A stretch of 63,164 bases of DNA, filler included, from Collodictyon triciliatum (lineage: Eukaryota): the NCBI GenBank assembly GCA_043381765.1. It is 3 parts of 3 records of this genome, joined end to end, with 100 filler letters (N's around TTAATTAATTAA, not from the genome) between each part and the next. Parts side by side here need not be neighbours in the genome. Positions count along the whole stretch, not along the records: positions 21,111 to 42,091 come from JBHJMP010001213.1; 2 more parts are not named here. One strand, given 5' to 3'. Every line of letters begins with the position of its first letter. The stretch's first letter is position 1. A program made the position numbers and the translations under genes. The notes under the pieces were generated by a model. That model was not told the DNA's origin. It made no database searches and saw nothing but the letters and a program-made list of their open reading frames with translations. This document shows positions 13,117-42,191 of the stretch, in pieces.

Positions 13117-14053
13117 GAGGAAAAATGTATTGCAAATGCAAGGAACAAAATGGCCATTCAAGAGCATCTGCCCCAAATGTGTTTCATGATTTTTTTTTGA
13201 AGCCCTTGAGCCCAATTAATGAGTAATAAGGGGAAAAGAGGATTTGTGCATATGACGGCTGCTCTCTGCCCTTTGCACTGGAGTAAACGATTATTATTAT
13301 TTTTTTCACCACCGATAACATGCTATGATTTTCCTGAGAGTGTGCTTGTGGCATGATTTGTCATGCGTTCCTCCTTTCGTATATTTTGTTCACTTCATAG
13401 ATGCCGAAGTTCTATCAAGCATCGCATCCCCATCAACTTCCTTAATCCAGTTTCATGGCATCTGTGTGTGCGTGTGTATGTGTTTGTGTGGCTGTCACAA
13501 GTCACGCTGATGAATTGTTCTGCGTGCTGAAGGAGCTTTTTTTTTTTCCACTTTGGCATTCAACCAGCGCTTGTTTTTGTTTTTGTTTTTGTCTTTTGTT
13601 CTCCATTTTCTTTCTCTTTTTTTTTTTTAGTAGAAAGACGATAAATTGACCAGAAAAAGCAGGCAAATGCGGAAATCCGACCCTTTTCCGAGAAACAATC
13701 CAGGGAATTTCCGCGAAGAGCAGCTATGATAGCGAAGCATAGCAAAGCTATCATCCCACATGTGGAAAATACATCACTACGACCATATTTTCCATATACC
13801 GCTTACTAGCGAATAGCCACAAGCAAAAAAAAAAAGAAAACGCAGTGTACCACAGTGCGCAGCCACGCATCAGCAACACGAAGTTACAGGTACCGAACGA
13901 CATGAATCACACTGCCTGTGACTCGCGTATCGAGTCCGTTTATGATCATCACAAAAAAAAGAAAAAAAAGAAAAAAAAAAAAGGACGAGTGAGTGGGGAA
14001 GGACACTAACCAAGAAAGACGGAAAGGAAAGACAAGAAGCAAAGGAAAGCAGG

Positions 14054-14908
14054 ATGCAGGCACGACCGAGCGCCCTGGAAAAAGTGATGAACCTGCCGGA
14101 CGCGGTGGTGGAGCCGCTGGGGCTGCTGCTGTTCCACGCGGGGATCACGGGGGCATACGCGTACTCGTTCGCCCTTGCACACGCGGAGGGCCGCCTGACG
14201 CGCCACGCATACCAGTTCCTGACGATCTGGATGGTGGCCGCCAACACGGTGTACTTTGCCCTGGCCACGGCACGCGACGCGCTGGATCTGGCGGCGGGCA
14301 TACGCAGCAGCAGACGGCGGCAGCGGGGCCGCACGCGGCGGGGCGGACGAGGAGGGCGTGGCGGACAGCCACAGCCACAGCCACAGGGACGACCACAGCC
14401 ACAGCCACAGCCGCAGCCACAGTCGTGGGCGCACCGGGCGTGCACGCGGCTGCAGCTGCCGGTGGTGAGCGTGTCGCTCGGGGCGTGCGGGGTGTTCTGG
14501 GCGCTGTGGCTGGCGGATGCGGAGCTCGTGCTGCCGGCCGCGCTGCAGTACCCGCCGCTGCTCAACCACCTGCAGCACACGCTGCCCGTCGCCACGGCGC
14601 TTGCGGAGCCGCTGCTGCTGTTCCACCCCGCCGACGCGCCCCCGCCCGCCGCCGCAGACTGCGCCGCCGCCTCCGCCCTCGCCCTGCTCTACCTCGCCCT
14701 CCTCGCCGTGCGCGGCGCCGTCCTCGGCCTCGGCTTCCCGTACCCCTTCATGCGCGCCTGGGGCCCCGCCGACTTTGCCTGCTTCGCCCTCCCCGCCGCC
14801 CTCCTCGCCCTCGCCCTGCCGCCCCTGCTGCGCCCGCTCCGCACCTACTACGCCCGCCCCGGCCCCACCCCCGTCCCCCTCTCCTCCCCCGACTCACTCT
14901 CCGACTGA
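14054..14908 (+). CDS. FAR-17a/AIG1/ADTRP-family integral membrane hydrolase, intronless
   Basis: 284-aa ORF with 'YQFLTIW', 'FWALWLADAELV.P', 'PPLLNHLQHTLP' and 'YPFM' motifs; the family's catalytic Thr (FLT) and His region (NHxxH) are present. Internal (CCACAG)n encodes a PQ run. Confidence 0.88.
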   Translation: MQARPSALEKVMNLPDAVVEPLGLLLFHAGITGAYAYSFALAHAEGRLTRHAYQFLTIWMVAANTVYFALATARDALDLAAGIRSSRRRQRGRTRRGGRGGRGGQPQPQPQGRPQPQPQPQPQSWAHRACTRLQLPVVSVSLGACGVFWALWLADAELVLPAALQYPPLLNHLQHTLPVATALAEPLLLFHPADAPPPAAADCAAASALALLYLALLAVRGAVLGLGFPYPFMRAWGPADFACFALPAALLALALPPLLRPLRTYYARPGPTPVPLSSPDSLSD

Positions 14909-14949
14909 GTCTCCGGCCCATGAAGCTCTTCCCGCCCGCCTCTGCCTCT

Positions 14950-15937
14950 TTACAGCCCGCACCGCTCGTCCAGGTCCACCAGCGCCTCTGCCTGCGCGAG
15001 CGTCAGCGTCGGCCTCTGCCCCCGTCGCGTGCGGATGAACTGTTTGTTGGTGATGCCGTTGTTATTGGCGATGGTGCTGCCATTTCTTCTTCTTCTTCTA
15101 ATGCTCTTGGTGTGTCGGATTCATGTGGTGGTACCTCCAGCGTCTCCTCCAGCGTGGTGTACCGGTGCGCGCCGCCCTTTGCCGTCTCGTGCTGGTGCCG
15201 CGCCTGCGACGTGCGGGCGGTCTGCTGGATGTGGCTCAGATGTGCGCGGAAGAGGTCGTCTGCTGCCGTCCGGGCCGCCGATGCGCAGGGGTGGTCTGCT
15301 TGCATGTCTCATATTATACACAGATATAACTATGCCGCATATGCGTGTAGATAGATGTGGACTCGGCAAAGGAGCCTCGTCTTTCCCTTGTGTCCTGTTG
15401 TCGATATGTGGCGGGGGGTGGCTTTGGGGCGGACGTGCCTGTGCGCAGGGCAGCCGTCAAGGTCGGCGGCACGATGGGGGTGACTCCGCCCGGTGCCGCG
15501 TGCAGGTCGTCAAAGACCATCCGGCGCAGTCGCCCGTAGTCGATGCCGCTGCCCAGCTCCTCTGCGCTCAAAGGGATGTATGCCTGCACGCCCATGTCCG
15601 ATGCCGTCTGTGGTGGTCGGTGGCGCGCGGGTTAGTCAAAGGCCTCGGCTGCTTGGGCGCCACACCAAGTGCACTCTTGAAGGCGCCGGTGTGGCGGGTT
15701 GCCGATTCTAGTCCTTCTCTCTCTCTCTCTTTTTTTTTCTCTCTTCTCTTTTCTTTCTATATGTATGTGTGCATGTATGTGTATGTTTGTGTATGAATGT
15801 GTGTGTAGGCCTTTGCTGGTTTTGTGACAAGAGGTGGGGTCATTTCGTATCTGAGATTAAGAACCATTTTGGGATGTGCGACTTTCGTGAATAGCGGCTC
15901 CTGTGGTTGTGTTTGTGCTGGTGTCTGCGGATGCTTT

Positions 15938-20657: not shown

Positions 20658-20927
20658 CTGTTAGGTTAATTTTTACAAAGGATAAGGTTTATTTTAATAT
20701 TAGTGAAAATAAGATAACATAATAATAAATCAAATGCTTAATTGTTCGGTTCATCAAAGAGAAAGAAAATATAAACAACAAATTAGATTATCCATGATAA
20801 AATTTTCAACAAAATCCAAATACACTTTCAATCGAATAAAAGAAAAACAATATCCAATAGCAAGATGAATATTTTACCACCATCACCATTTTTGTTAATA
20901 AAAAAGAGACTGGCACGAGAAATTTAC

Positions 20928-20928
<1 letters not shown>

Positions 20929-21010
<82 letters not shown>
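20929..21010. repeat. (ATA)n microsatellite at contig end
   Basis: Directly visible. Confidence 0.95.
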
Positions 21011-21110
21011 NNNNNNNNNNNNNNNNNNNNNNNNNNNNNNNNNNNNNNNNNNNNTTAATTAATTAANNNNNNNNNNNNNNNNNNNNNNNNNNNNNNNNNN
21101 NNNNNNNNNN
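21011..21110. other. Artificial contig linker N44-TTAATTAATTAA-N44
   Basis: 100-nt spacer with stop codons in all six frames; identical copy at 42092-42191. Confidence 0.97.
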
Positions 21111-22065
21111 CATGAATTATGTTTACTCAGTTCTGTCTCTAAATCGATTAAAGATACTCTTGATGTCTCAAACTGCTGATTCTCTTCAAAAGTCACGGCA
21201 CCAAAAGAAGCAGCACTTTGTAAATCTGTTGTCATGCATATCCTGAGGCATTGTACTTTTTTTTTCTCGTGCAAGAGAATTTTGTGATTTTTAAGAGGTT
21301 TGCTATCATGTCTTCTTTGGCGTACCGTGTAACGTAATTTCTTACCTGTCTCATCCATCATGTAAACGAAATTAAACTTGCCTGCGTCCACTCCAACTTT
21401 ATTTTTTTTTCACTTATAAAGATAACTGCTCTTCGGAAAGTTCATCAATATAAACATATTATTGGTTTTTTTTTGGTTATATTTGGATTTAGAATTTTGA
21501 AATACCTTTCTTTCCAAACAACGATGACACTGCCAAGCCGTCTGTTTTTATCATGTATTTAAAATTGTAGTCTGTTTGATGAAGGACACTCTTCTTCATT
21601 TCAAAGAAATCATCCCATAGGGTCTCTGCATCATGATATATTCTTCATTAACGATGTTTTTCAGTTGATACAAATAAATCTATCAAACATGCGGTATCTA
21701 GTGTAATATGACATGGCATATAGTTAGTTCTTATAGGGATTGGTTGATACTTTTTGATTCCAATGTCCTCAAAAATGTGATTCATGTAAATCAGATATGG
21801 AATGAACTTATTTGGATTGACTTTGACGTCATATTCGATACCATTTACAATATTGCTGGGAATGATACGATGCATATGCGTTTTAGCTCATTCTTTATAT
21901 TGTTCAGGTATTTCGAGTTTCTTGAATATGGCTTTTTTCTAACTCTCGTAACTCTGCCTTTTTAATAGCTTCCGTAATATTCTCATCTTTAGGAACTGTT
22001 TGATTTATAAAGTGCAGTAACCTCTTTACAAAATGCTCCTTAATGTTATTATGATAAGCTGTTAG
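21111..22065 (-). pseudogene. Decayed Fanzor1-like (TnpB/Cas12-family RNA-guided nuclease) fragment
   Basis: Minus-strand motifs in the expected order: LTAYHNNIKEHFVKRLLHFIN; YDVKVNPNKFIPYLIYMN; QPIPIRTNYMPCHITLDTACLIDLF; YNFKYMIKTDGLAVS; YIDEL...KVGVDAGKFNFVYM (RuvC-I, Asp at 21386-21388); KLRYTVRQRR; LETELSKHNS. Interrupted by TGA at 21888-21890, several TAA and apparent frameshifts; 3' part runs off the contig. Confidence 0.82.
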
Positions 22066-22290
22066 TCCACGGGGGGAAATTCTGCCTCGAATCGAATCCA
22101 GGCCAGGGCTCCCGGTAGTTACAGCTCTTTAGAATTGTAATTATTCTCAACCCTCTCGGGTGCATAGTGATGAACCATGTATCCAGCTTCCGTACCAGAC
22201 CGGCCTGCACTCTTATCCGACACACGTCACTGCTTTCAACCAAGGCGCATGCAACTACCTCGGACTGGAAAGAAGATCATCTAAAAGCCA
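22066..22290. other. Unidentified GC-elevated, potentially structured segment abutting the 5' break of the Fanzor relic
   Basis: Fanzor similarity stops abruptly at about 22066. Plus-strand stems: 22115-22144 (12 pairs incl. 3 G-U) and 22158-22164/22206-22212. Confidence 0.35.
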
Positions 22291-22960
22291 TTCCTTCCCT
22301 TGGATCGAATAAAGGAAAAAAAAGTATTTTTTAACCTTATTATATATACTAATTATACTATTATATTATTCAGGTTGTTTCTTGGATTCATCACTGCTCC
22401 TGCTTTTGTCAATCCAGATTTAATTCGATAGTTGTCTGCGCAAGGAAGAAAGAACGCCAGTTCAATATTATTATTTTCTGAGGAATGTGTTATTTGTCTC
22501 TCAGTGTGCTTGTTTCTCAGCAAAGGAGACTTTTTCTTGTTCGCTGGTTTTGTTTTTCGTTGCTCCTCTCAAGTCTGTCTCTCTCAGCGATCACCGCATT
22601 TATCCATTGTGGGGTATAGAATAGTCAATCCTTAAGTTATCTGTGCGCGCAAACATATATATTAACATCATAATAATTAGCATAATGTTGAAATTTCATC
22701 ACAGATTGCCTATTTGTTGAATCTGTATATTTTAAATATGTGGAAATGATATATTCCACATTATAAAAATGAATCTGGAAAATATATTTCGCCAGACTTC
22801 GCCACATAATCAGATCCAAGCCACGTTTGTGGGTGAGCCCACAATCTTTCGGTCCGAAGAATAAGGCGCTTGCGACGACAACTTGGAAAACTGGAGTCAG
22901 GAAAGACGTCTGCGAAACAATAAAAGAGTTTACTAAAAAGCAGCACAACTTTCACAAGGA

Positions 22961-25900
22961 ATGAGTGCCAAGCAACACAGAAATAAGCCACAAACAGCCA
23001 AAGCAAAGGCCAGTCACAACAACAACAACAACAACAACAACAGCGGCAGCAACAGCGGCAGCAACAGCAAAGAAAGCAACGAAGGCGAAGATGAAACACA
23101 CTTCCGGTCAGTTCGGCCGGCCTTATCTGCAACTCTGCTGAGTATTGTGGAGGAAGGCTTTGGCTTCACCCGAATGACGCCCGTGCAGCAGGCTGTGTTG
23201 CCACTGTTTCTGTCCTTCAAGGATGTTGCAGTGGAGGCGTGCACAGGGTCTGGAAAGACGCTCTCTTTTGTCCTCCCCATTTTCCAGATGCTTCTGCGAA
23301 GAGAGGCGCCCATCGAGCCTGCTGATAGGAAGGTTCTTGCCCTCGTCATTCTCCCAACAAGGTCTGCCGGCCCAATCTCCTGCTTCTTCTTTGCTTAGCA
23401 AATGAGTCATCAATATGAATAAATATCTCAATTAATCAAAAACATCATAAAAACATCATAAAAACATCATAAAAACATCATAAAAACATCATAAAAACAT
23501 CATAAAAACATCATAAAAACATCATAAAAACATCATAAAAACACCAGAAAATATCAGAATTTTTTAATTGAAACATCGCCCAGTGATAGAAAAGCAAAAT
23601 CCATGCTCGAATTTCAACACAATATTTCTTCCTTTAGATTCAGAGAATTTCAACACAAATAAAAATTGGACGCAACACATGTTTTATTCATGATTATTTG
23701 TCTATTTTTTCATATCATAGAGAACTCGCAACACAGGTTAGCACCGTGATTCAACCATTTATGAATTGCATCCCCACTGCCACTCTTCAACTTTTTATCG
23801 GTGGAGAGGACGTTCATGCTGGTTCGTTTTTTTAAAAGAAGCATTTCAAGCATAGTTTTATGCAAGATGATATCAATTTTCATGTGGATATCTAGTCGAT
23901 GAGCTAAAAAATTCCTGCCTTGCTTTGCCAAGATGTGGACAGGTTCAAGGAACAAGGCGGAACCGTTGTTGTTGGAACTCCTGGGAGGCTTTGGGACTTG
24001 ATTAGTCGTATGGACTCAATGAACTTCAGGGAACTGGAAGTGCTTATATTGGATGAGGCTGATAGGTGACATTATCTCTTTATTCACACATTCACGAAAT
24101 CAACAACCACTTGTAGTAAGGCATTTAGAACAAGAATTAAAAAATTATTATGTTTGTGATAAAACTTCTCGTCCTTTCGTGCAGATTACTGGATATGGGC
24201 TTCGAAAACACCATTAACTCAATCCTTCAAAAACTTCCTAAGCAAAGGCGAACGGTAAATCTGTTCTTTATTTTAATTACGAGAATTTTAAATGAATTAA
24301 ATCTTTAATTGCCTTGATTTTAGTATGAAAGTAAGTTTTTTCTTAGATTACTTTTTAAGCCTTATTATTCATATAATTTTCTTACCTGTATCTATTCGTT
24401 TATTGAATGTTTTTTTTTCAAAAGGGACTTTTCTCTGCAACCTTAACCGAAGGAGTCGCAGAGCTTGTACGTTTATATAATGAGATACTGTTTTATTAAT
24501 CTTTCATTATTTTCATCGCAATGGCCATAATGATATGTTGATGAAATGATTATTTTCTTTTCTTTTTTTTAAAAAAAAAAACAGGTTAAAGCTGGAATGA
24601 GAAATCCTGTGAAAGTTAGTGTTCGAGTTGAAGACACAGCGAAGGGAGTACAAACAACACCAGAGAGGTATTCTTTGAAAGTTTTAGTTTATGGGAACCT
24701 TTTCCGAGTATTCACACTATTGAACAAAAAAATTAATTCAAATTATATCTTAATCAAGAAATCTGCTTTCTAAGATACAACCATCTTTTTCTCAATTTTT
24801 TTCTTAGCTTGACCAATTGGTATATGATTGTGGAAAACAACCAAAAGTTTAATGCACTCGTCAGCTTTTTGAAAAAGAATACTGATCAAAAAATCATCGT
24901 CTATTTTCTAACATGCTATTGCGTGGAATATTTCACAAAGGTAGAACGAATCTCATGGCTTCATAAATACCTTGTCACACCAATGCTTTTTCTTTTACTT
25001 CCCTTTTTCCTTTTCCACTGCGCTAACTGATATGTGAATACTGATAAAGCTTCTGGAATGAACACCCCTCTGAATCATGAATTGGCGGTATCAATTAGGT
25101 GTTATCTCTGGAAAAGTTAAAGCTACCAAAGGTGTTCACTCTACACGGAAAGCTGAAGCACAAGAAGAGGACAAGTATATTTCCAGTTCCAAATATCGAC
25201 AATCTCTATACCCTGTGTAACCGCCGATATTATGCATGAATCATCTATCTGCATTCTATCTAAACTCTACAAAAGGCACACTCCAAGAATTTACGCAGGG
25301 CACTGGTGGGATTCTTTTAGCAACAGACCTTGCTGCCCGCGGTCTTGATATTCCCGACGTGAATTGGGTTATACAGTATGTGTACTTTCCCATTGAATGC
25401 GAATGTGATACTTGCTTGTGTTATTTTTTTCAACAAGGAAGATATTAGTAAATTTTAGCCTCTGAAATACCAAAGAAAACCGAGAACTTTATCAGTGGAA
25501 TACAAAAATATATGCGGTGTACTCTTAAACGATGAGAAGATTTTGCAGATGGCCTTTTTTTGTTTTTATATTTCCCGGCATCTGTAAATTATATCGAAGG
25601 TAATATATTGGAAATAGGTATGACCCTCCGCAGGACCCCAAATCCTTCCTTCACAGAATCGGTCGTACGGCGCGCATGGGAAAACTTGGAAGTGCTATTG
25701 TATATTTAACTCCGATGGAAGATACATACGTTGGTAAGGCGAAACAAAGAGGCTATGAATACAAACAATCCACAAAATTAGTTTATTTCATAATGAGAAT
25801 AGTATGCAATTAAAGTGGGTTAATTTTTTTTTTGTATTTTTTTATATCCAGATTTCATGAAAGTTCGAAAAGTTCCGATGCAGAAACTTGCGATGGGCTC

Positions 25901-27472
25901 ATCCAACGTTAACTATCTTAGTGTTATCAAAGAATCAGCAACAAAAGATAGAGACATTTACGAGAAGGTTTGATTTTGTCGTATAGACTTCAAAAGTTGA
26001 GCATGTTGCATTAGCATTCATTCACCCCACTCCAAATCACTTTTGTGTACCATTAGGGCCAGCGAGCAGCTGTGTCATATGTCAGAGCATATAAGGTGAA
26101 TATACTTTTCTTTGAAATATTACATAGATAAAAAAATGTGTTTCTCGGTAGCTGCACATGATAATCGAAATGTTCCTCACCCAAAAAATACTTAAAATAG
26201 GAGCATCATTGTAACTTTATATTTAAATTGAAGGACTTTGAGTTTGGGAAGCTTTTCACAGGATTTGGCCTATTAAGAGTATGTACAAGTTTTATTCATC
26301 GATATTTATTCAAAATACATGATATAATATGTAAGCGTATTTTGAATATGTGTGAATTGATACGGTAATAAACCAACATACTTTAAATGAAGGCACCAAA
26401 AATGCCGGAAGTAAAAGAGCCTGTTCCTTTATTTGAGCCTACAAATGTCGATATCAATAGCCTCAAATACGCAGATAAAACCAGAGAGAAACTGAGACAA
26501 AAGATTCTGAAAGACAGAGCAGAGAAGGAAAAGTATACCTAATTCAATCTCTTATTCCCATTTGAACCCACAAAACCATGAGTGACATCCAAAAATTTTA
26601 TTATTACATATTTTCTTTAAAACCCCCCAATATTTGTGGCTTCATGCATATGCTCTGTCTAAAAACTAAGTTACTAAACGAGCATTAACTCATCTATTCT
26701 GCACGCTACACTTTGAATCGAATAAAGGAAGAAAAAAAACTCATATATTCTGCTGAATACCATTCATTCATGAAAATCTACTCCTTCATAGGGCATTAAC
26801 CGCAGAGAAAGAACTTGCAAAAGGACAAAAGAGAAAGCAACAAGATGCTAAGGCTCAACATCCGGCAAAACATGCCGCCAAAAAAAGTGCACATCAAAGT
26901 AAATCAATTGGGGATGGAGAAGAAGACGAAGATGAAGACGAAGACGATGATGACTTCAACGAAGAATACAAGACGATTAAGAAAGTATGTACATGGCATT
27001 AATCAAATTCTTTCAGTGCGCTTTCATGATGATGGATACCTTCGTACACACAGCCGATAGACACAAATGATATAAAACCATCATCCACATGAGCCATTCC
27101 CACACTAACCCATCATCACAGGCCAAAAAACGCAGATTATCGGAAAAGGATTTGCAGAAGGAACTCGGAGAAGATGAGTTGTTTTCTGATTCTGAAGTCA
27201 AGACAAAAGCGCAACGAAGCGAAGCCACAGCTGTAAATAAGGGACAAAGCAGCGACGAAAGCGAAGAAAGCGATTCAGAGGATTCTGATAGCAGAGAGGA
27301 TTCATTACCAGACGCACGACAAAGAAAGAAAGGAACCACAAAATCAAATATGGCGCCTGGCCAAAAGAAAGGGTCTTCGTGGAGCAAGAAAAAGGAACTG
27401 AATGATAAAAGAAAGCTGCGCAAAACTAAAAGGCAGATGAAGAAAGCCTTAAAGAAAGCATCTTCTGACTAA
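22961..27472 (+). CDS. DDX55: ATP-dependent DEAD-box rRNA helicase DDX55/Spb4, multi-exon
   Basis: Q motif 'GFTRMTPVQ', '[14 protein letters not shown]', 'PTRELA', 'GTPGR', '[14 protein letters not shown]', 'LPKQRRTGLFSAT', '[14 protein letters not shown]', '[21 protein letters not shown]' and the Spb4-type tail '[15 protein letters not shown]'. Confidence 0.93.
23438..23543. repeat. 11-bp tandem repeat (AAAAACATCAT)n, about 9-10 copies, in DDX55 intron 1
   Basis: Directly visible. Confidence 0.92.
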
Positions 27473-27831
27473 TCGAAATCTCCATACGGCTCTAATAAAG
27501 TCATTAAAAACATTGGCAAAGCAAGTCGTGTGACTTTTATTTCTTTTCATTTAATACCCATGCTTTCACTTAATATGTATTTTATTTCCTGCAAACAGCA
27601 TGGATGATGACATATGGGAATGAGAAGACCAATATCTTTCCGAAACTGCTGACGAGCATGCGCTATACAAAAGTAAAAATGGTCAGTTAGGCTTCTGGTA
27701 TATATTTCAATAATATCGCGGTATTGTGATACCACTCTTCTGGGATTCCATATGAACAGACAAAAAGAACCAAAGGAGTAGGAAGCAGAGGAAAGCACAT
27801 GATAAAAAAAAAAAGCTGAGATGTTACTTTG

Positions 27832-28825
27832 TTATGTACGCTCCAGTTCGCGACGATACTCGCGGAGAATGACGGGAACCGATGTGGCAGGCAGCATTCC
27901 GACCTCGGATACAATCATAGTCACATATTCTACCGGAGTGGCATCGTACTTGAGATTCAGCGCCTAAAATCAAGAAAGGATTACGCTAATACTCTACATA
28001 TTCAACTTCAAACAAGACTGTGATTCAATTTTATTGGGTGCATCGGTAATATTCTTTTCTCTTAGTGTGTCGTTTCACTTCAAAAAAATACATATAGCGA
28101 GGGAATTTCTCTCCAGGACGAAATATGACTGTTTCCATTTGGCACAGAAGCGATTGACTCAGGATTACCTAAAAATCGAAAAAATACAAGAGAAAAGTAT
28201 AATAAAATAAAATATGCAGGTAGGAATTAGGTAAACTATAAACAGTAAAAAATAAAAAAATAAAAATAAACAAATCGAAAAGATTCAACAAAGGGCAAAA
28301 GAGGTAATAAAAGTTTCTTATGGTTTTGAATTGAATATGCGCACACCAAGTTCGTTGGAACATATCGAATCAAGCTGTGTTCTGTCAGAAAACTTGAACA
28401 TTTCAGAGCACACAATGAAGGGAATGTTGTGAGACTTGGCAGCAAGCGCAACCATCGATGTTCCAACGCGTGATATACATGAACCATTCTGGAGTACTGC
28501 GTGGGCACCCACGATGCACTTCGTGACCTACCAAAATAAAAAATTAATTAATTAAATCATAAAAACAGAAAACAGAAAACGTGGAGAGTAATGGAATTAG
28601 TGTGTTATTTTGAGGTCGTGCCATGAAATTAATCAGAATCAGTTTCCTGTGAAAACCACAAACCGATTTCATGATAAACGGTAAAGAGTTGATAAGGACA
28701 TATGTGCAGTTGATTCCTTCCATGACTAAACGGCTCAGCAGACTGCGCCCTGTGGAGAGCATGGAGATTGGATTTACATACATAATTTGATAGGTGAGCA
28801 TATGGTGATACAGATACAAAGAGTG

Positions 28826-28868
<43 letters not shown>

Positions 28869-30152: not shown

Positions 30153-30854
30153 ATAGATGAATGAATGTTGAAAAATGATAAACACATATATAATTTTTTC
30201 CTTTATTCGCTTTAAGGGAAGGAAATATTTTTAGAATAAACGCATAAATAATAAATGATAAAAAATAAATAGATGAATAGATAAATGAATAGATAAATGA
30301 ATAGATAAATGAATAGATAAATGAATAGATAAATGAACAGATAAATGAACAGATAAATGAACAGATAAATGAACAGATAAATGAATAGATAAATGAATAG
30401 ATAAATGAATAGATAAATGAATAGATAAATGAATAGATAAATGAATAGATAAATGAATAGATAAATGAATAGATAAATGAATAAATCGCAGTATAAATAG
30501 AGGCTGGAGGACCTGTTTTCTCGTAACTTTGGCCAGTTGCTTCGGATCATCAAACTGAACTACGTTGCTGGGAGCTGAGGGTGCCTTCTTGAGCCTCTCA
30601 GGATTGGATCCCTTATCCTTCTCTTTTTCCTTTTCCTTGTCTTTGTCCTTTTCCTTGTCTTTGTCCTTACCTTTTGTTTGTTGGCCAGACTGGGTAGGCT
30701 TCTTTGCACTTCCAGGTTGTTCGCTGGCATGTGTGACTCCTGGAGACGAGAGCGGACCCGACAAAGAACTCAACTCGGCAGCAGAGGAGTTTGAGATGGA
30801 TCGCTCCTTTGAGACCGAGGCATTCGCGATTTGGCCAGCGATCTCGTCGCTCAT
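27832..30854 (-). CDS. EIF2B4: Translation initiation factor eIF2B delta subunit; one exon probably hidden in N gap
   Basis: 'VQFDDPK', 'VALFSHLPQF', 'IHPQIIRLGMQY...GSTARCIAFL', 'FLVECRPL', 'DGDVILTYA', 'GAHAVLQNG..SRVGTSMVAL', 'KFSDRTQLDSICSNEL', 'LNLKYDATP...SEVGMLPATSVPVILREY'. Confidence 0.93.
28869..29189. other. Within-scaffold assembly gap (321 N) between poly-A runs
   Basis: N run without linker motif, inside the eIF2B-delta gene. Confidence 0.97.
30075..30486. repeat. (AAAT)n tract and 12-bp (ATAAATGAATAG)n tract in eIF2B-delta intron 1
   Basis: Two arrays at about 30075-30153 and 30266-30486; four adjacent 12-mers carry a T>C variant. Confidence 0.93.
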
Positions 30855-42091: not shown

Positions 42092-42191
42092 NNNNNNNNN
42101 NNNNNNNNNNNNNNNNNNNNNNNNNNNNNNNNNNNTTAATTAATTAANNNNNNNNNNNNNNNNNNNNNNNNNNNNNNNNNNNNNNNNNNNN
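42092..42191. other. Artificial contig linker N44-TTAATTAATTAA-N44
   Basis: Identical to 21011-21110. Confidence 0.97.

What the first reader, a model, noticed from the sequence alone, without database searches (positions are those of the whole stretch)
21111..22065. Fanzor1-like RNA-guided nuclease relic in a protist genome
Seen: ordered motifs 'TAYHNNIKEHF..RL..FIN', 'HITLDT', 'F...IKTDG..VS', 'VGVDAGK' (RuvC-I, DAG in place of the usual DPG) and 'LRYT..QRR', broken by stops and frameshifts; AT-rich and without clear introns, unlike its neighbours. Known: Fanzors are eukaryotic and viral TnpB-derived RNA-guided nucleases carried by transposons, with the omegaRNA at the element's 3' end. Inference: an intact family member, possibly of giant-virus origin, may exist elsewhere in this genome. 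The break at the contig start without a microsatellite suggests a multi-copy element. RuvC-II/III and the omegaRNA region are off the contig.
Basis: partly seen in the sequence, partly recalled or inferred. Interest (0 to 1): 0.75.

Follow-up and report, generated by a model that had tools for sequence, protein, structure and literature searches.

The report
Decayed Fanzor1 transposon gene fragment
This is a broken, half-length leftover of a Fanzor1 gene (an RNA-guided DNA cutter carried by jumping genes) in a protist-like genome; it is an ordinary fossil of a known family whose closest labelled intact relatives sit in giant-virus DNA.

Summary
On the minus strand of 21112-22065 lie four colinear ORF pieces carrying every quoted motif. 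They match a 648-aa intact relative (P0003) over its residues 126-455 (tblastn E 7e-82, 51-60% identity). P0003 matches the three solved Fanzor1 proteins at E 2e-28 to 4e-23. A profile of 27 relatives matches SpuFz1 end to end at E 2.6e-99 and no other solved protein.

The copy is dead. It has six in-frame stops and two frameshifts. Its 5' end is truncated at 22064/22065. Its 3' end, with RuvC-II/III and any omegaRNA, is cut by the contig start.

It belongs to a multi-copy repeat. In four public runs up to 20 different contigs cover one position of the relic, while the neighbouring helicase gene has almost none. Other copies lack at least two of this copy's stops.

The nearest labelled relatives are full-length genes in giant-virus contigs. 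They sit inside 2.3-5.5 kb elements with 32-33 nt terminal inverted repeats, often next to a DDE_3 transposase.

This is a new member of a known kind, of low to moderate interest. Whether an intact copy exists in this genome could not be tested, because no assembly is held.

The parts
21011..21111 (.). Artificial spacer between two contigs (N runs around TTAATTAATTAA). The relic's 3' part is lost here.
21112..21409 (-). Frame -2 piece carrying the RuvC-I region 'VGVDAGK', then 'LRYTVRQRR' and on to 'SLIDLETELSKHNS'. It aligns to P0003 residues 361-455 (60% identity) and is open to the contig edge.
   Evidence: family profile E 2.5e-16, positions 359-423
21398..21419 (-). Frameshift zone (-1 to -2) at a run of ten T (21401-21410). 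Some other copies in public runs have one base fewer here.
   Evidence: table 4 (21398 and 21401 'left out 1')
21420..21938 (-). Frame -1 piece with 'YDVKVNPNK', 'PIRT..PCHITLDTACLIDL' and 'YMIKTDGLAVSSLF'. It aligns to P0003 residues 180-353 (51% identity) and holds six in-frame stops (21888-90, 21648-50, 21645-47, 21489-91, 21477-79, 21459-61).
   Evidence: profile E 1.4e-29 and 6.5e-14; PDB alignment to SpuFz1
21925..22065 (-). Frame -3 piece 'LTAYHNNIKEHFVKRLLHFINQTV...AELRELEK'. It aligns to P0003 from about residue 139. A one-base frameshift against frame -1 lies near 21931-21938.
   Evidence: profile E 1.3e-9; P0053 alignment
22064..22065 (.). 5' truncation point of the ORF. In 4 of 4 runs laid, other copies run on here with sequence that I translated by hand as VLPYLAKQM, the residues that precede LTAYHNN in P0003.
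   Evidence: table 7; for P0003; no match to profile positions 1-132 anywhere in the window
22065..22321 (.). Unrelated 257-nt segment of 49% GC abutting the truncated ORF. It has no Pfam or Rfam match and no fold signal, and it is itself moderately repeated. Its identity is unknown.
   Evidence: one contig of run X3 spans 22029-22373 at about 97% identity (table 8)
22322..22515 (.). Short repeat with higher summed contig depth than the ORF in runs X2 and X3. Other copies diverge from the window before 22322 and after 22443. It may be the terminal piece of a transposon; a link to the Fanzor element is not shown.
   Evidence: tables 2, 3, 7

Best explanation
The segment is a dead copy of a Fanzor1 gene from a multi-copy DNA transposon family resident in this eukaryote's lineage. 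About half of the gene survives (residues ~139-455 of a ~650-residue protein). This part covers most of the N-terminal half and the first catalytic motif of the RuvC nuclease.

The first ~138 codons were lost at a breakpoint where unrelated DNA now abuts. The last ~190 codons (the rearranged RuvC-II glutamate, the zinc ribbon and RuvC-III) and any guide-RNA region lie beyond the contig start. The assembler probably broke the contig there because the element is repeated. The surviving part carries six nonsense codons and two frameshifts, so it makes no protein.

Inferred from relatives and the literature, not shown here: the parent element was a 2.3-3.3 kb unit bounded by terminal inverted repeats. 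It would have moved by a Tc1/mariner-IS630-type DDE transposase supplied in cis or in trans. Its Fanzor1 protein would bind an omegaRNA transcribed from the 3' end of its own gene and cut DNA matching the guide next to the element's end.
For: Homology:
- tblastn of the intact 648-aa P0003 covers the relic in three frames (E 7e-82).
- The read-through with X at the breaks is 53.6% identical to P0003 139-455 (E 4e-107).
- P0003 matches GtFz1, PpFz1 and SpuFz1 at E 2e-28, 2.7e-24 and 3.7e-23.
- The family profile matches only these three PDB sequences at E<=1e-3 (3 of 3 hits, best 2.6e-99 over positions 10-600 of 608).
- Pieces A and D, which were not used to collect the family, still hit the profile at 1.3e-9 and 2.5e-16.

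Decay: stops and frameshifts are listed. In other copies 21888 reads C, turning TGA into TGG (Trp), in 24 contigs over four runs. P0053, which is about 83-86% identical, also has W there. In other copies 21491 reads T, turning TAA into AAA (table 3).

Multi-copy:
- 230 contigs of X2 and 260 of X3 were laid on 3.5 kb.
- Up to 20 distinct contigs cover one relic position.
- Summed contig depth is 131-325 over the relic in X2. It is 4.7 at most in X2 bins from 22633 on, where one 99.7%-identical contig covers part of the neighbouring gene.

Family traits:
- D364 and G521 are invariant; E555, T558, S559, R603 and D604 are at least 90% conserved in 27 relatives.
- 13 of 27 relatives match PF07282.
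- P0003 fits D-x-[TS][TS]-x-x-C4-RD, the motif of PMC3627910 (passages).

Element anatomy in viral relatives:
- 80 of 80 loci hold a full-length ORF.
- A DDE_3 transposase lies beside the gene in L002 and L005, and a homologue lies in the flanks of 30 of 80 loci.
- TIRs of 32-33 nt were found in 3 of 3 loci examined.
- An exact inverted repeat of at least 20 nt brackets the gene in 57 of 80 loci.
- All 34 aligned right ends finish ...GGTGTA.
- A 7-bp helix in the last codons shows compensatory changes (208-244: CG 17, AU 7, UA 5). Over the two counted helices (12 pairs), 91.8% of cells are paired against 36-64% when slid, and 0 of 500 shuffles reach the observed score.
Against: - No Pfam model matches any of the four pieces, nor P0003 itself, in the local Pfam copy.
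- Piece D alone finds no Fanzor in the PDB.
- The relic's direct PDB E-values are modest (2.7e-4 at best), so the assignment leans on the chain through P0003 and the profile. The profile was collected with the relic's own middle pieces as query.
- Copy number rests on Logan contigs from other samples or organisms, and the tool warns that summed depth is not a copy number. The source organism's own reads were not available.
- No transposase remnant (best E 1.4) and no viral-type TIR (0 matches with up to 3 mismatches) is present in the window. The carrier superfamily of this host copy is therefore inferred only from relatives at 34-39% identity.
- Both frameshifts lie at homopolymer runs and could in principle be assembly errors. 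The six substitution stops and the truncation could not.
Confidence: 0.9

Rival explanations
1. The gene is intact in the organism, and the breaks are sequencing or assembly errors on a low-quality contig end.
For: Both frameshifts sit at homopolymer runs: T10 at 21401-21410 and T6 near 21931. Some other copies differ by one base in the T10 run (table 4).
Against: The six in-frame stops are base substitutions, two of them adjacent. The first ~138 codons are replaced by unrelated 49% GC DNA. That junction is seen independently in a 345-nt contig of run X3 at about 97% identity (table 8).
Confidence: 0.03
2. The fragment is part of an endogenised giant-virus segment, not a copy of a host-resident transposon.
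For: The nearest labelled relatives are in giant-virus contigs. The nearest Atlas clusters are 92-100% viral. The relic is more AT-rich than its surroundings.
Against: Only about 870 bp from the ORF breakpoint lies a multi-exon DEAD-box helicase gene of cellular type. No other viral-type gene was seen beside it. The relic's clade sits on a long stem (0.56) apart from the viral rows. None of the 80 viral loci kept exceeds 47% identity to P0003, and the P0003-specific scan of IMG/VR found nothing. Many 85-95% similar copies exist in organism-labelled runs.
Confidence: 0.06
3. It is a relic of another TnpB-type protein (Fanzor2, IS607/IS605 TnpB of bacterial origin, or a Cas12-like gene), not of Fanzor1.
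For: All these proteins share the RuvC/zinc-ribbon core. 13 of 27 relatives match PF07282, 'Cas12f1-like TNB'.
Against: At E<=1e-3 the family profile matches only Fanzor1 chains in the PDB (3 of 3). The PDB also holds a Fanzor2 structure according to the abstract of PMC11832414. The surviving part is the N-terminal half, which PMC3627910 describes as variable between Fanzor and TnpB. It is nevertheless colinear with SpuFz1 and PpFz1.
Confidence: 0.02

Closest known systems
Fanzor1 of TIR-bounded single-gene elements (SPu-1 / SpuFz1 of Spizellomyces punctatus; PDB 8gkh)
   Same: The family profile matches SpuFz1 over its whole length (E 2.6e-99). Protein size is the same (~600-650 aa). Relatives are single-ORF elements of about 2.35 kb with 32-33 nt TIRs, against about 2.1 kb and 33-bp TIRs for SPu-1 (PMC3627910 passage). 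The conserved G...E pair (G521/E555 here, G500/E536 in SPu-1-1p) is shared. Both are multi-copy with intact and broken copies.
   Different: The window copy is a half-length pseudogene without termini. Sequence identity to SpuFz1 is low: only 24 bits for the 132-residue read-through. The relatives carry the N-terminal family PF26935/DUF8286, which my local Pfam copy did not return.
[quoted passage not shown]
   Same: The closest labelled relatives (L002-L006) are about 3.3 kb units in giant-virus contigs. They pair a DDE_3/HTH transposase with Fanzor1 between TIRs that end ...GGTG followed by TA. This is the architecture the paper describes for Mariner+Fanzor1 elements with TA duplications (passages).
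   Different: I did not compare sequences with those named elements. The window copy is in a cellular context, is only 34-39% identical to the viral proteins, and shows no transposase or TIR trace.
TnpB of IS200/IS605 and IS607, and Fanzor2
   Same: They share the RuvC-I Asp, the [TS][TS]-x-x-C4 zinc ribbon, the RD of RuvC-III, and a guide RNA encoded at the 3' end of the gene. The covarying helix overlaps the last codons in the viral relatives. Saito et al. describe omegaRNAs that overlap the Fz gene (figure legend).
   Different: No TnpB or Fanzor2 chain reaches E 1e-3 against the family profile. The N-terminal half, which is the part that survives here, is specific to Fanzor1.

Membership tests
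Fanzor1 | Significant sequence similarity to experimentally characterised Fanzor1 proteins over a colinear stretch | tested here: met
   Relic read-through: the top 3 of 6 PDB hits are SpuFz1, PpFz1 and GtFz1 (E 2.7e-4, 1.7e-3, 4.9e-3). Closest intact relative P0003: 2e-28 to 3.7e-23. Family profile: 2.6e-99. All four pieces hit the profile in order.
Fanzor1 | RuvC-I catalytic aspartate (the D of DPG) | tested here: met
   VGVDAGK at about 21377-21397 aligns to VGVDPGK of P0003 (D364, invariant in 27 relatives). The neighbouring Pro is replaced by Ala.
Fanzor1 | Rearranged RuvC-II (Gly at the canonical site, alternative Glu before TS), C4 zinc ribbon, RD of RuvC-III | not testable with these tools
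   This part lies beyond the contig start at 21112. It is present in P0003 (G521, E555, T558-S559, CxxC...CxxC, R603-D604). Equating G521/E555 with the published G500/E536 and the 'alternative glutamate' (PMC3627910, PMC10530073 passages) is my inference.
Fanzor1 | Open reading frame able to give a protein | tested here: not met
   Six in-frame stops, two frameshifts and loss of about 138 N-terminal codons. It is a relic of a member, not a working member.
Fanzor1 | omegaRNA encoded at the 3' end of the gene or the right end of the element | not testable with these tools
   This region is off the contig. In 34 viral relatives a 7-bp helix in the last codons shows compensatory changes at 3 pairs in 4 or more sequences. 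RNAalifold on the same gappy alignment predicted no pairs.
Fanzor1 | Carried by a transposon (TIRs, target duplication, transposase) and present in several copies | tested here: inconclusive
   The window has no TIR, duplication or transposase trace. Many diverged copies exist in four public runs. Viral relatives have TIRs and a DDE_3 transposase.
Fanzor2 / prokaryotic TnpB | Closer similarity to Fanzor2 or TnpB than to Fanzor1 | tested here: not met
   Only Fanzor1 chains pass E 1e-3 against the family profile (3 of 3).

The most novel reading that the evidence does not exclude
The relic marks a host-resident, multi-copy branch of the mainly giant-virus-borne DUF8286 Fanzor1 clade. On this reading the protist lineage and its giant viruses exchanged an RNA-guided-nuclease transposon. 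Intact copies with their own omegaRNA are still active in this genome or in its close relatives. That would give a natural system in which a Fanzor element can be followed across a virus-host boundary.
Probability: 0.3. Interest if true: 0.4.

Novelty: new member of a known kind. Interest (0 to 1): 0.25.

Why it matters
On its own this is one more fossil of a family already catalogued in thousands of eukaryotic and viral genomes. That figure comes from Jiang et al. 2023, which reports 3655 unique putative nucleases (passage), and from Saito et al. 2023 (section read).

Its modest value is as a pointer. It shows that this freshwater-associated eukaryote lineage carries a repeated Fanzor1 family. 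The nearest labelled kin are full-length, TIR-bounded elements in giant-virus genomes. An intact 54%-identical relative with all catalytic residues exists in public data. Anyone mining compact eukaryotic RNA-guided nucleases, or studying transposon traffic between giant viruses and hosts, could use it as a lead.

Tried and rejected
- Whole-genome search: no genome is held for this window.
- Pfam on the four pieces gave nothing above threshold; the best was DUF5958 at 22.4 bits against a cutoff of 23.6. Pfam on P0001-P0004 gave nothing.
- Piece D alone against the PDB gave only irrelevant hits at E about 0.9.
- Rfam (E<=1 on 21111-28868; gathering threshold on the whole window) and tRNA scans found nothing.
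- Other copies in the window: none by tblastn, blastn or the family profile.
- The viral scan with P0003 alone found none. The 27-row alignment was too diverse to scan with. A 7-row alignment worked.
- Further protein searches found no relative closer than P0053 (84% identity over a third of the query) or P0158.
- Sequencing runs: no listed holder has more than 0.13 of the sampled words, and no RNA holder is listed. Neither expression nor the source organism's read depth could be assessed.
- The neighbouring gene is largely uncovered in the laid runs. I treat this only as missing cover.
- I considered a TGA=Trp code because one TGA sits at a Trp position. I rejected it because other copies have TGG there, and the other TGA (21645-47) and the four TAA stops do not align to Trp.
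- I considered introns as the cause of the breaks. I rejected this because homology runs straight through the stops.
- The 257-nt GC-rich neighbour has no Pfam hit and fold z-scores of -0.54 and -0.97.
- RNAalifold on the 3'-end alignment predicted no pairs. I then counted a helix that I had named by eye, so the counts lean towards it.

Full report
**What is there.** The window is three contigs joined by spacers of N around TTAATTAATTAA (N runs 21011-21054, 21067-21110, 42092-42135 and 42148-42191). The finding begins at the first base of the second contig (21112).

- 21904-22128, frame -3: ...LTAYHNNIKEHFVKRLLHFINQTV...
- 21648-21887, frame -1: ...PCHITLDTACLIDL...
- 21489-21644, frame -1: ...YMIKTDGLAVSSLF...
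- 21112-21409, frame -2: VGVDAGK...LRYTVRQRR...SLIDLETELSKHNS

The stretch has 32.7% GC, against 38.7% for its contig and 46-56% for three exon pieces of the next gene. That next gene (22937 to about 25813, plus strand) is a DEAD-box helicase split into many exons. The host is therefore an intron-bearing eukaryote, and the relic itself needs no introns.

**Is it Fanzor1?** The local Pfam copy returned nothing significant for the pieces. Piece D alone found nothing relevant in the PDB.

The 79-aa piece B has the three solved Fanzor1 proteins as its top three of five PDB hits (E 0.0044-0.0051). The two same-frame pieces, read through with X at their two adjacent stops (P0001), give SpuFz1 2.7e-4, PpFz1 1.7e-3 and GtFz1 4.9e-3. 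These alignments run colinearly from the P..R....P.HI..DT motif to TDG.(A/S)VS.

A word-indexed search found four longer relatives among 79 candidates. The key one is P0003, an uninterrupted 648-aa protein. tblastn of P0003 against the window covers its residues 126-455 in three frames (E 7e-82; 48%, 51% and 60% identity). P0003 matches GtFz1, PpFz1 and SpuFz1 at 2.1e-28, 2.7e-24 and 3.7e-23.

An exhaustive HMMER scan with P0001 found 829 representative proteins at E<=1e-3 and 181 at E<=1e-10. I aligned 27 full-length relatives from that scan (A1). The A1 profile matches SpuFz1 over positions 10-600 of 608 at E 2.6e-99, PpFz1 at 4.7e-96 and GtFz1 at 1.3e-80. It matches nothing else in the PDB at E<=1e-3.

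I scored the profile against all 2495 ORF pieces of the window. Only the four pieces hit (1.3e-9, 1.4e-29, 6.5e-14, 2.5e-16), in order, on positions 133-183, 195-271, 278-323 and 359-423. The next best piece has E 0.11. The profile was gathered with the two middle pieces as bait, so their scores are partly circular. The first and last pieces were not used as bait and are independent support.

The A1 consensus reads NNIKxHF, ITxDT, IxTDGxxxS, VxxDPGK and LRYTxxQR.

**State of the copy.** Following P0003 and the closer fragment P0053 (about 83-86% identical), the reading path has three parts:
- frame -3 from 22065 to about 21932;
- a one-base shift near 21931-21938;
- frame -1 to about 21420, with six in-frame stops (TGA 21888-90, TAA 21648-50, TGA 21645-47, TAA 21489-91, TAA 21477-79, TAA 21459-61);
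- a second shift at the T10 run 21401-21410;
- frame -2, open to the contig edge.

The RuvC-I aspartate is kept (GVDAGK). The neighbouring proline, at least 90% conserved in the family, is alanine.

Upstream of LTAYHNN the homology stops at 22064/22065. Nothing in the window matches profile positions 1-132.

The relic thus covers about residues 139-455 of 648 (53.6% identity to P0003 over 321 columns, E 4e-107). The conserved Gly/Glu pair, the TS-zinc-ribbon and the RD of RuvC-III lie beyond the contig start. These are G521, E555, T558-S559 and R603-D604 in P0003. P0003 fits the published Fanzor/TnpB motif D-X(125,275)-[TS][TS]-X-X-C4-X(5,50)-RD (PMC3627910, passages). My strict regular expression for the motif found it in 11 of 27 relatives. 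13 of 27 relatives match PF07282.

**Other copies.** No genome is held, and no run holds more than 0.13 of the sampled words of 21112-24600. I laid four runs at 85% likeness or better: two metagenomes and two small organism-labelled runs, all as Logan contigs. The results were:
- 81, 230, 260 and 46 contigs were laid. Nearly all lie on 21112-22064 and 22282-22515.
- In bins from 22633 onward, cover is zero or low in all four runs, apart from one X1 bin at 110.8 (23452-23568). In X2 that cover (4.7 at most) includes one 99.7%-identical contig on 23073-23404.
- Up to 20 different contigs of one run cover a single relic position.
- Likeness classes in X2 were 20 contigs at 99% or better, 53 at 95-99%, 92 at 90-95% and 65 under 90%.

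The tool warns that summed depth is not a copy number, so I use only the count of distinct contigs as evidence of many diverged copies.

Other copies read C at 21888 in 3, 9, 8 and 4 contigs of the four runs. That turns this copy's TGA into TGG, matching the W of P0053. They read T at 21491 (TAA to AAA) in 1, 6 and 1 contigs. At least these two stops are therefore private to this copy.

At 22064, loose ends in all four runs continue with a 30-nt consensus. I translated it by hand as VLPYLAKQM, which precedes LTAYHNN in P0003. Other copies therefore keep the 5' part that is lost here.

A 345-nt contig of X3 spans 22029-22373 with 10 differences. The junction with the 49% GC segment is therefore real and is shared with a close relative, or was duplicated together with it.

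**Relatives in giant viruses.** A scan of IMG/VR with P0003-specific peptides found nothing. A scan with a 7-row alignment found 411 related stretches out of 471 pattern matches. The best 80 loci are 38-47% identical to P0003 over its full length, and many lie on contigs named GVMAG, up to 289 kb long. Their features are:
- All 80 loci hold one uninterrupted full-length ORF.
- In L002 and L005 the flanks encode a ribonucleotide reductase small chain and an mRNA capping enzyme/methyltransferase, among other proteins.
- In L002 and L005 a ~345-aa DDE_3 (+HTH_28) transposase lies directly upstream and divergent.
- A homologue of that transposase lies in the fetched flanks of 30 of the 80 loci. 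None is in the window (best E 1.4).
- Inverted repeats of 32-33 nt, 97-100% complementary, bracket transposase plus Fanzor1 in L002, L004 and L005.
- An exact inverted repeat of at least 20 nt brackets the gene in 57 of 80 loci. Element sizes cluster near 2.35 kb (Fanzor only), 3.3 kb and 4.6-5.5 kb.
- All 34 aligned right ends finish ...GGTGTA before diverging. This is what a Tc1/mariner-type end with a TA duplication would look like (inference).

This matches the Mariner+Fanzor1 elements that Bao and Jurka described in algal giant viruses (passages).

A 7-bp helix inside the last ~18 codons shows compensatory changes: 208-244 is CG 17 / AU 7 / UA 5, 209-243 is UA 25 / AU 4, and 210-242 is CG 27 / GC 4. 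Over the two counted helices (12 pairs), 91.8% of cells are paired, against 36-64% for slid partners, and 0 of 500 shuffles reach the observed score. I named this helix by eye after RNAalifold predicted nothing, so the counts lean towards it. It fits an omegaRNA that overlaps the gene's 3' end, as in the figure legend of Saito et al..

**Placement.** I built a quick IQ-TREE of 43 rows: the relic read-through, the 27 A1 rows, P0002, P0004, 12 of the 80 viral ORFs and L001 as outgroup. P0053 was left out as too short.
- The relic groups with P0003, P0002 and P0004 (SH-aLRT 99).
- This group is sister, at 92 (not starred), to four viral rows plus P0009.
- Both sit inside a starred clade of 22 rows, 12 of them viral.
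- The relic clade has a long stem (0.56), and the relic's own branch is long (0.79).

The ESM Atlas names PF26935, the precomputed domain of the relatives, as DUF8286. The four nearest clusters are 92-100% Viruses, with Nucleocytoviricota the commonest phylum.

The giant-virus link is thus real at the level of the subfamily. The direction and date of any transfer are not shown, and the immediate context here is cellular.

**Verdict.** This is a half-length, decayed copy of a Fanzor1 gene from a repeated transposon family. The family is known, and so are its presence in protists and giant viruses, its carriage by Mariner-type elements and its frequent truncation (PMC3627910, PMC10432273 and PMC10530073; passages and one section read). 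I rate it a new member of a known kind, with interest 0.25.

Noticed in passing
window 14030-15700 (first contig): An island of about 57-72% GC lies in a background of about 33% GC. The ORF 14054-14905 (+) is a FAR-17a/AIG1-like membrane protein (PF04750, E 3.2e-15). The cause of the compositional jump is unknown (foreign origin, local bias or assembly chimera).
   Followed up: partly
window 22065-22321: A 257-nt segment of 49% GC is wedged between the truncated Fanzor ORF and another repeat. It has no Pfam or Rfam match and no fold signal, and it ends in an A-rich stretch on the plus strand. It is moderately repeated in runs X2 and X3. About 40 nt of its 3' end resemble 30194-30235 (83%).
   Followed up: partly
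window 22322-22515: A short AT-rich repeat has higher summed contig depth than the Fanzor ORF in X2 and X3 (804-1012 at 22394, in 19-20 contigs). Other copies have sharp shared ends at 22322 and 22443. It may be the terminus of a transposon or a MITE.
   Followed up: partly
window 22937-25813 (+): A multi-exon DEAD-box RNA helicase gene (GSGKT, PTR|ELA split by an intron, [12 protein letters not shown]) lies next to the relic, with an Asn/Ser-rich low-complexity N-terminus.
   Followed up: no
window 20927-21010 and 15860-15930: The first contig ends in a (TAA)n microsatellite of about 84 nt. A long (CA/GT)n run lies near 15.9 kb.
   Followed up: no
L002-L081 (IMG/VR loci): Several giant-virus MAGs carry two or more copies of the Fanzor1 element on different contigs, for example GVMAG-M-3300023184-165, -3300009161-26, -3300023179-64 and -3300024278-1. 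L040 and L058 hold a second partial copy within 6 kb. This suggests the element is or was mobile within viral genomes.
   Followed up: partly
L012, L037, L048, L054 against the other loci of alignment A3, columns 262-278: A second hairpin (GTAGG...CCTAC) spanning the stop codon is present in most viral copies. It is cleanly deleted in four of the 34, so it seems dispensable.
   Followed up: no
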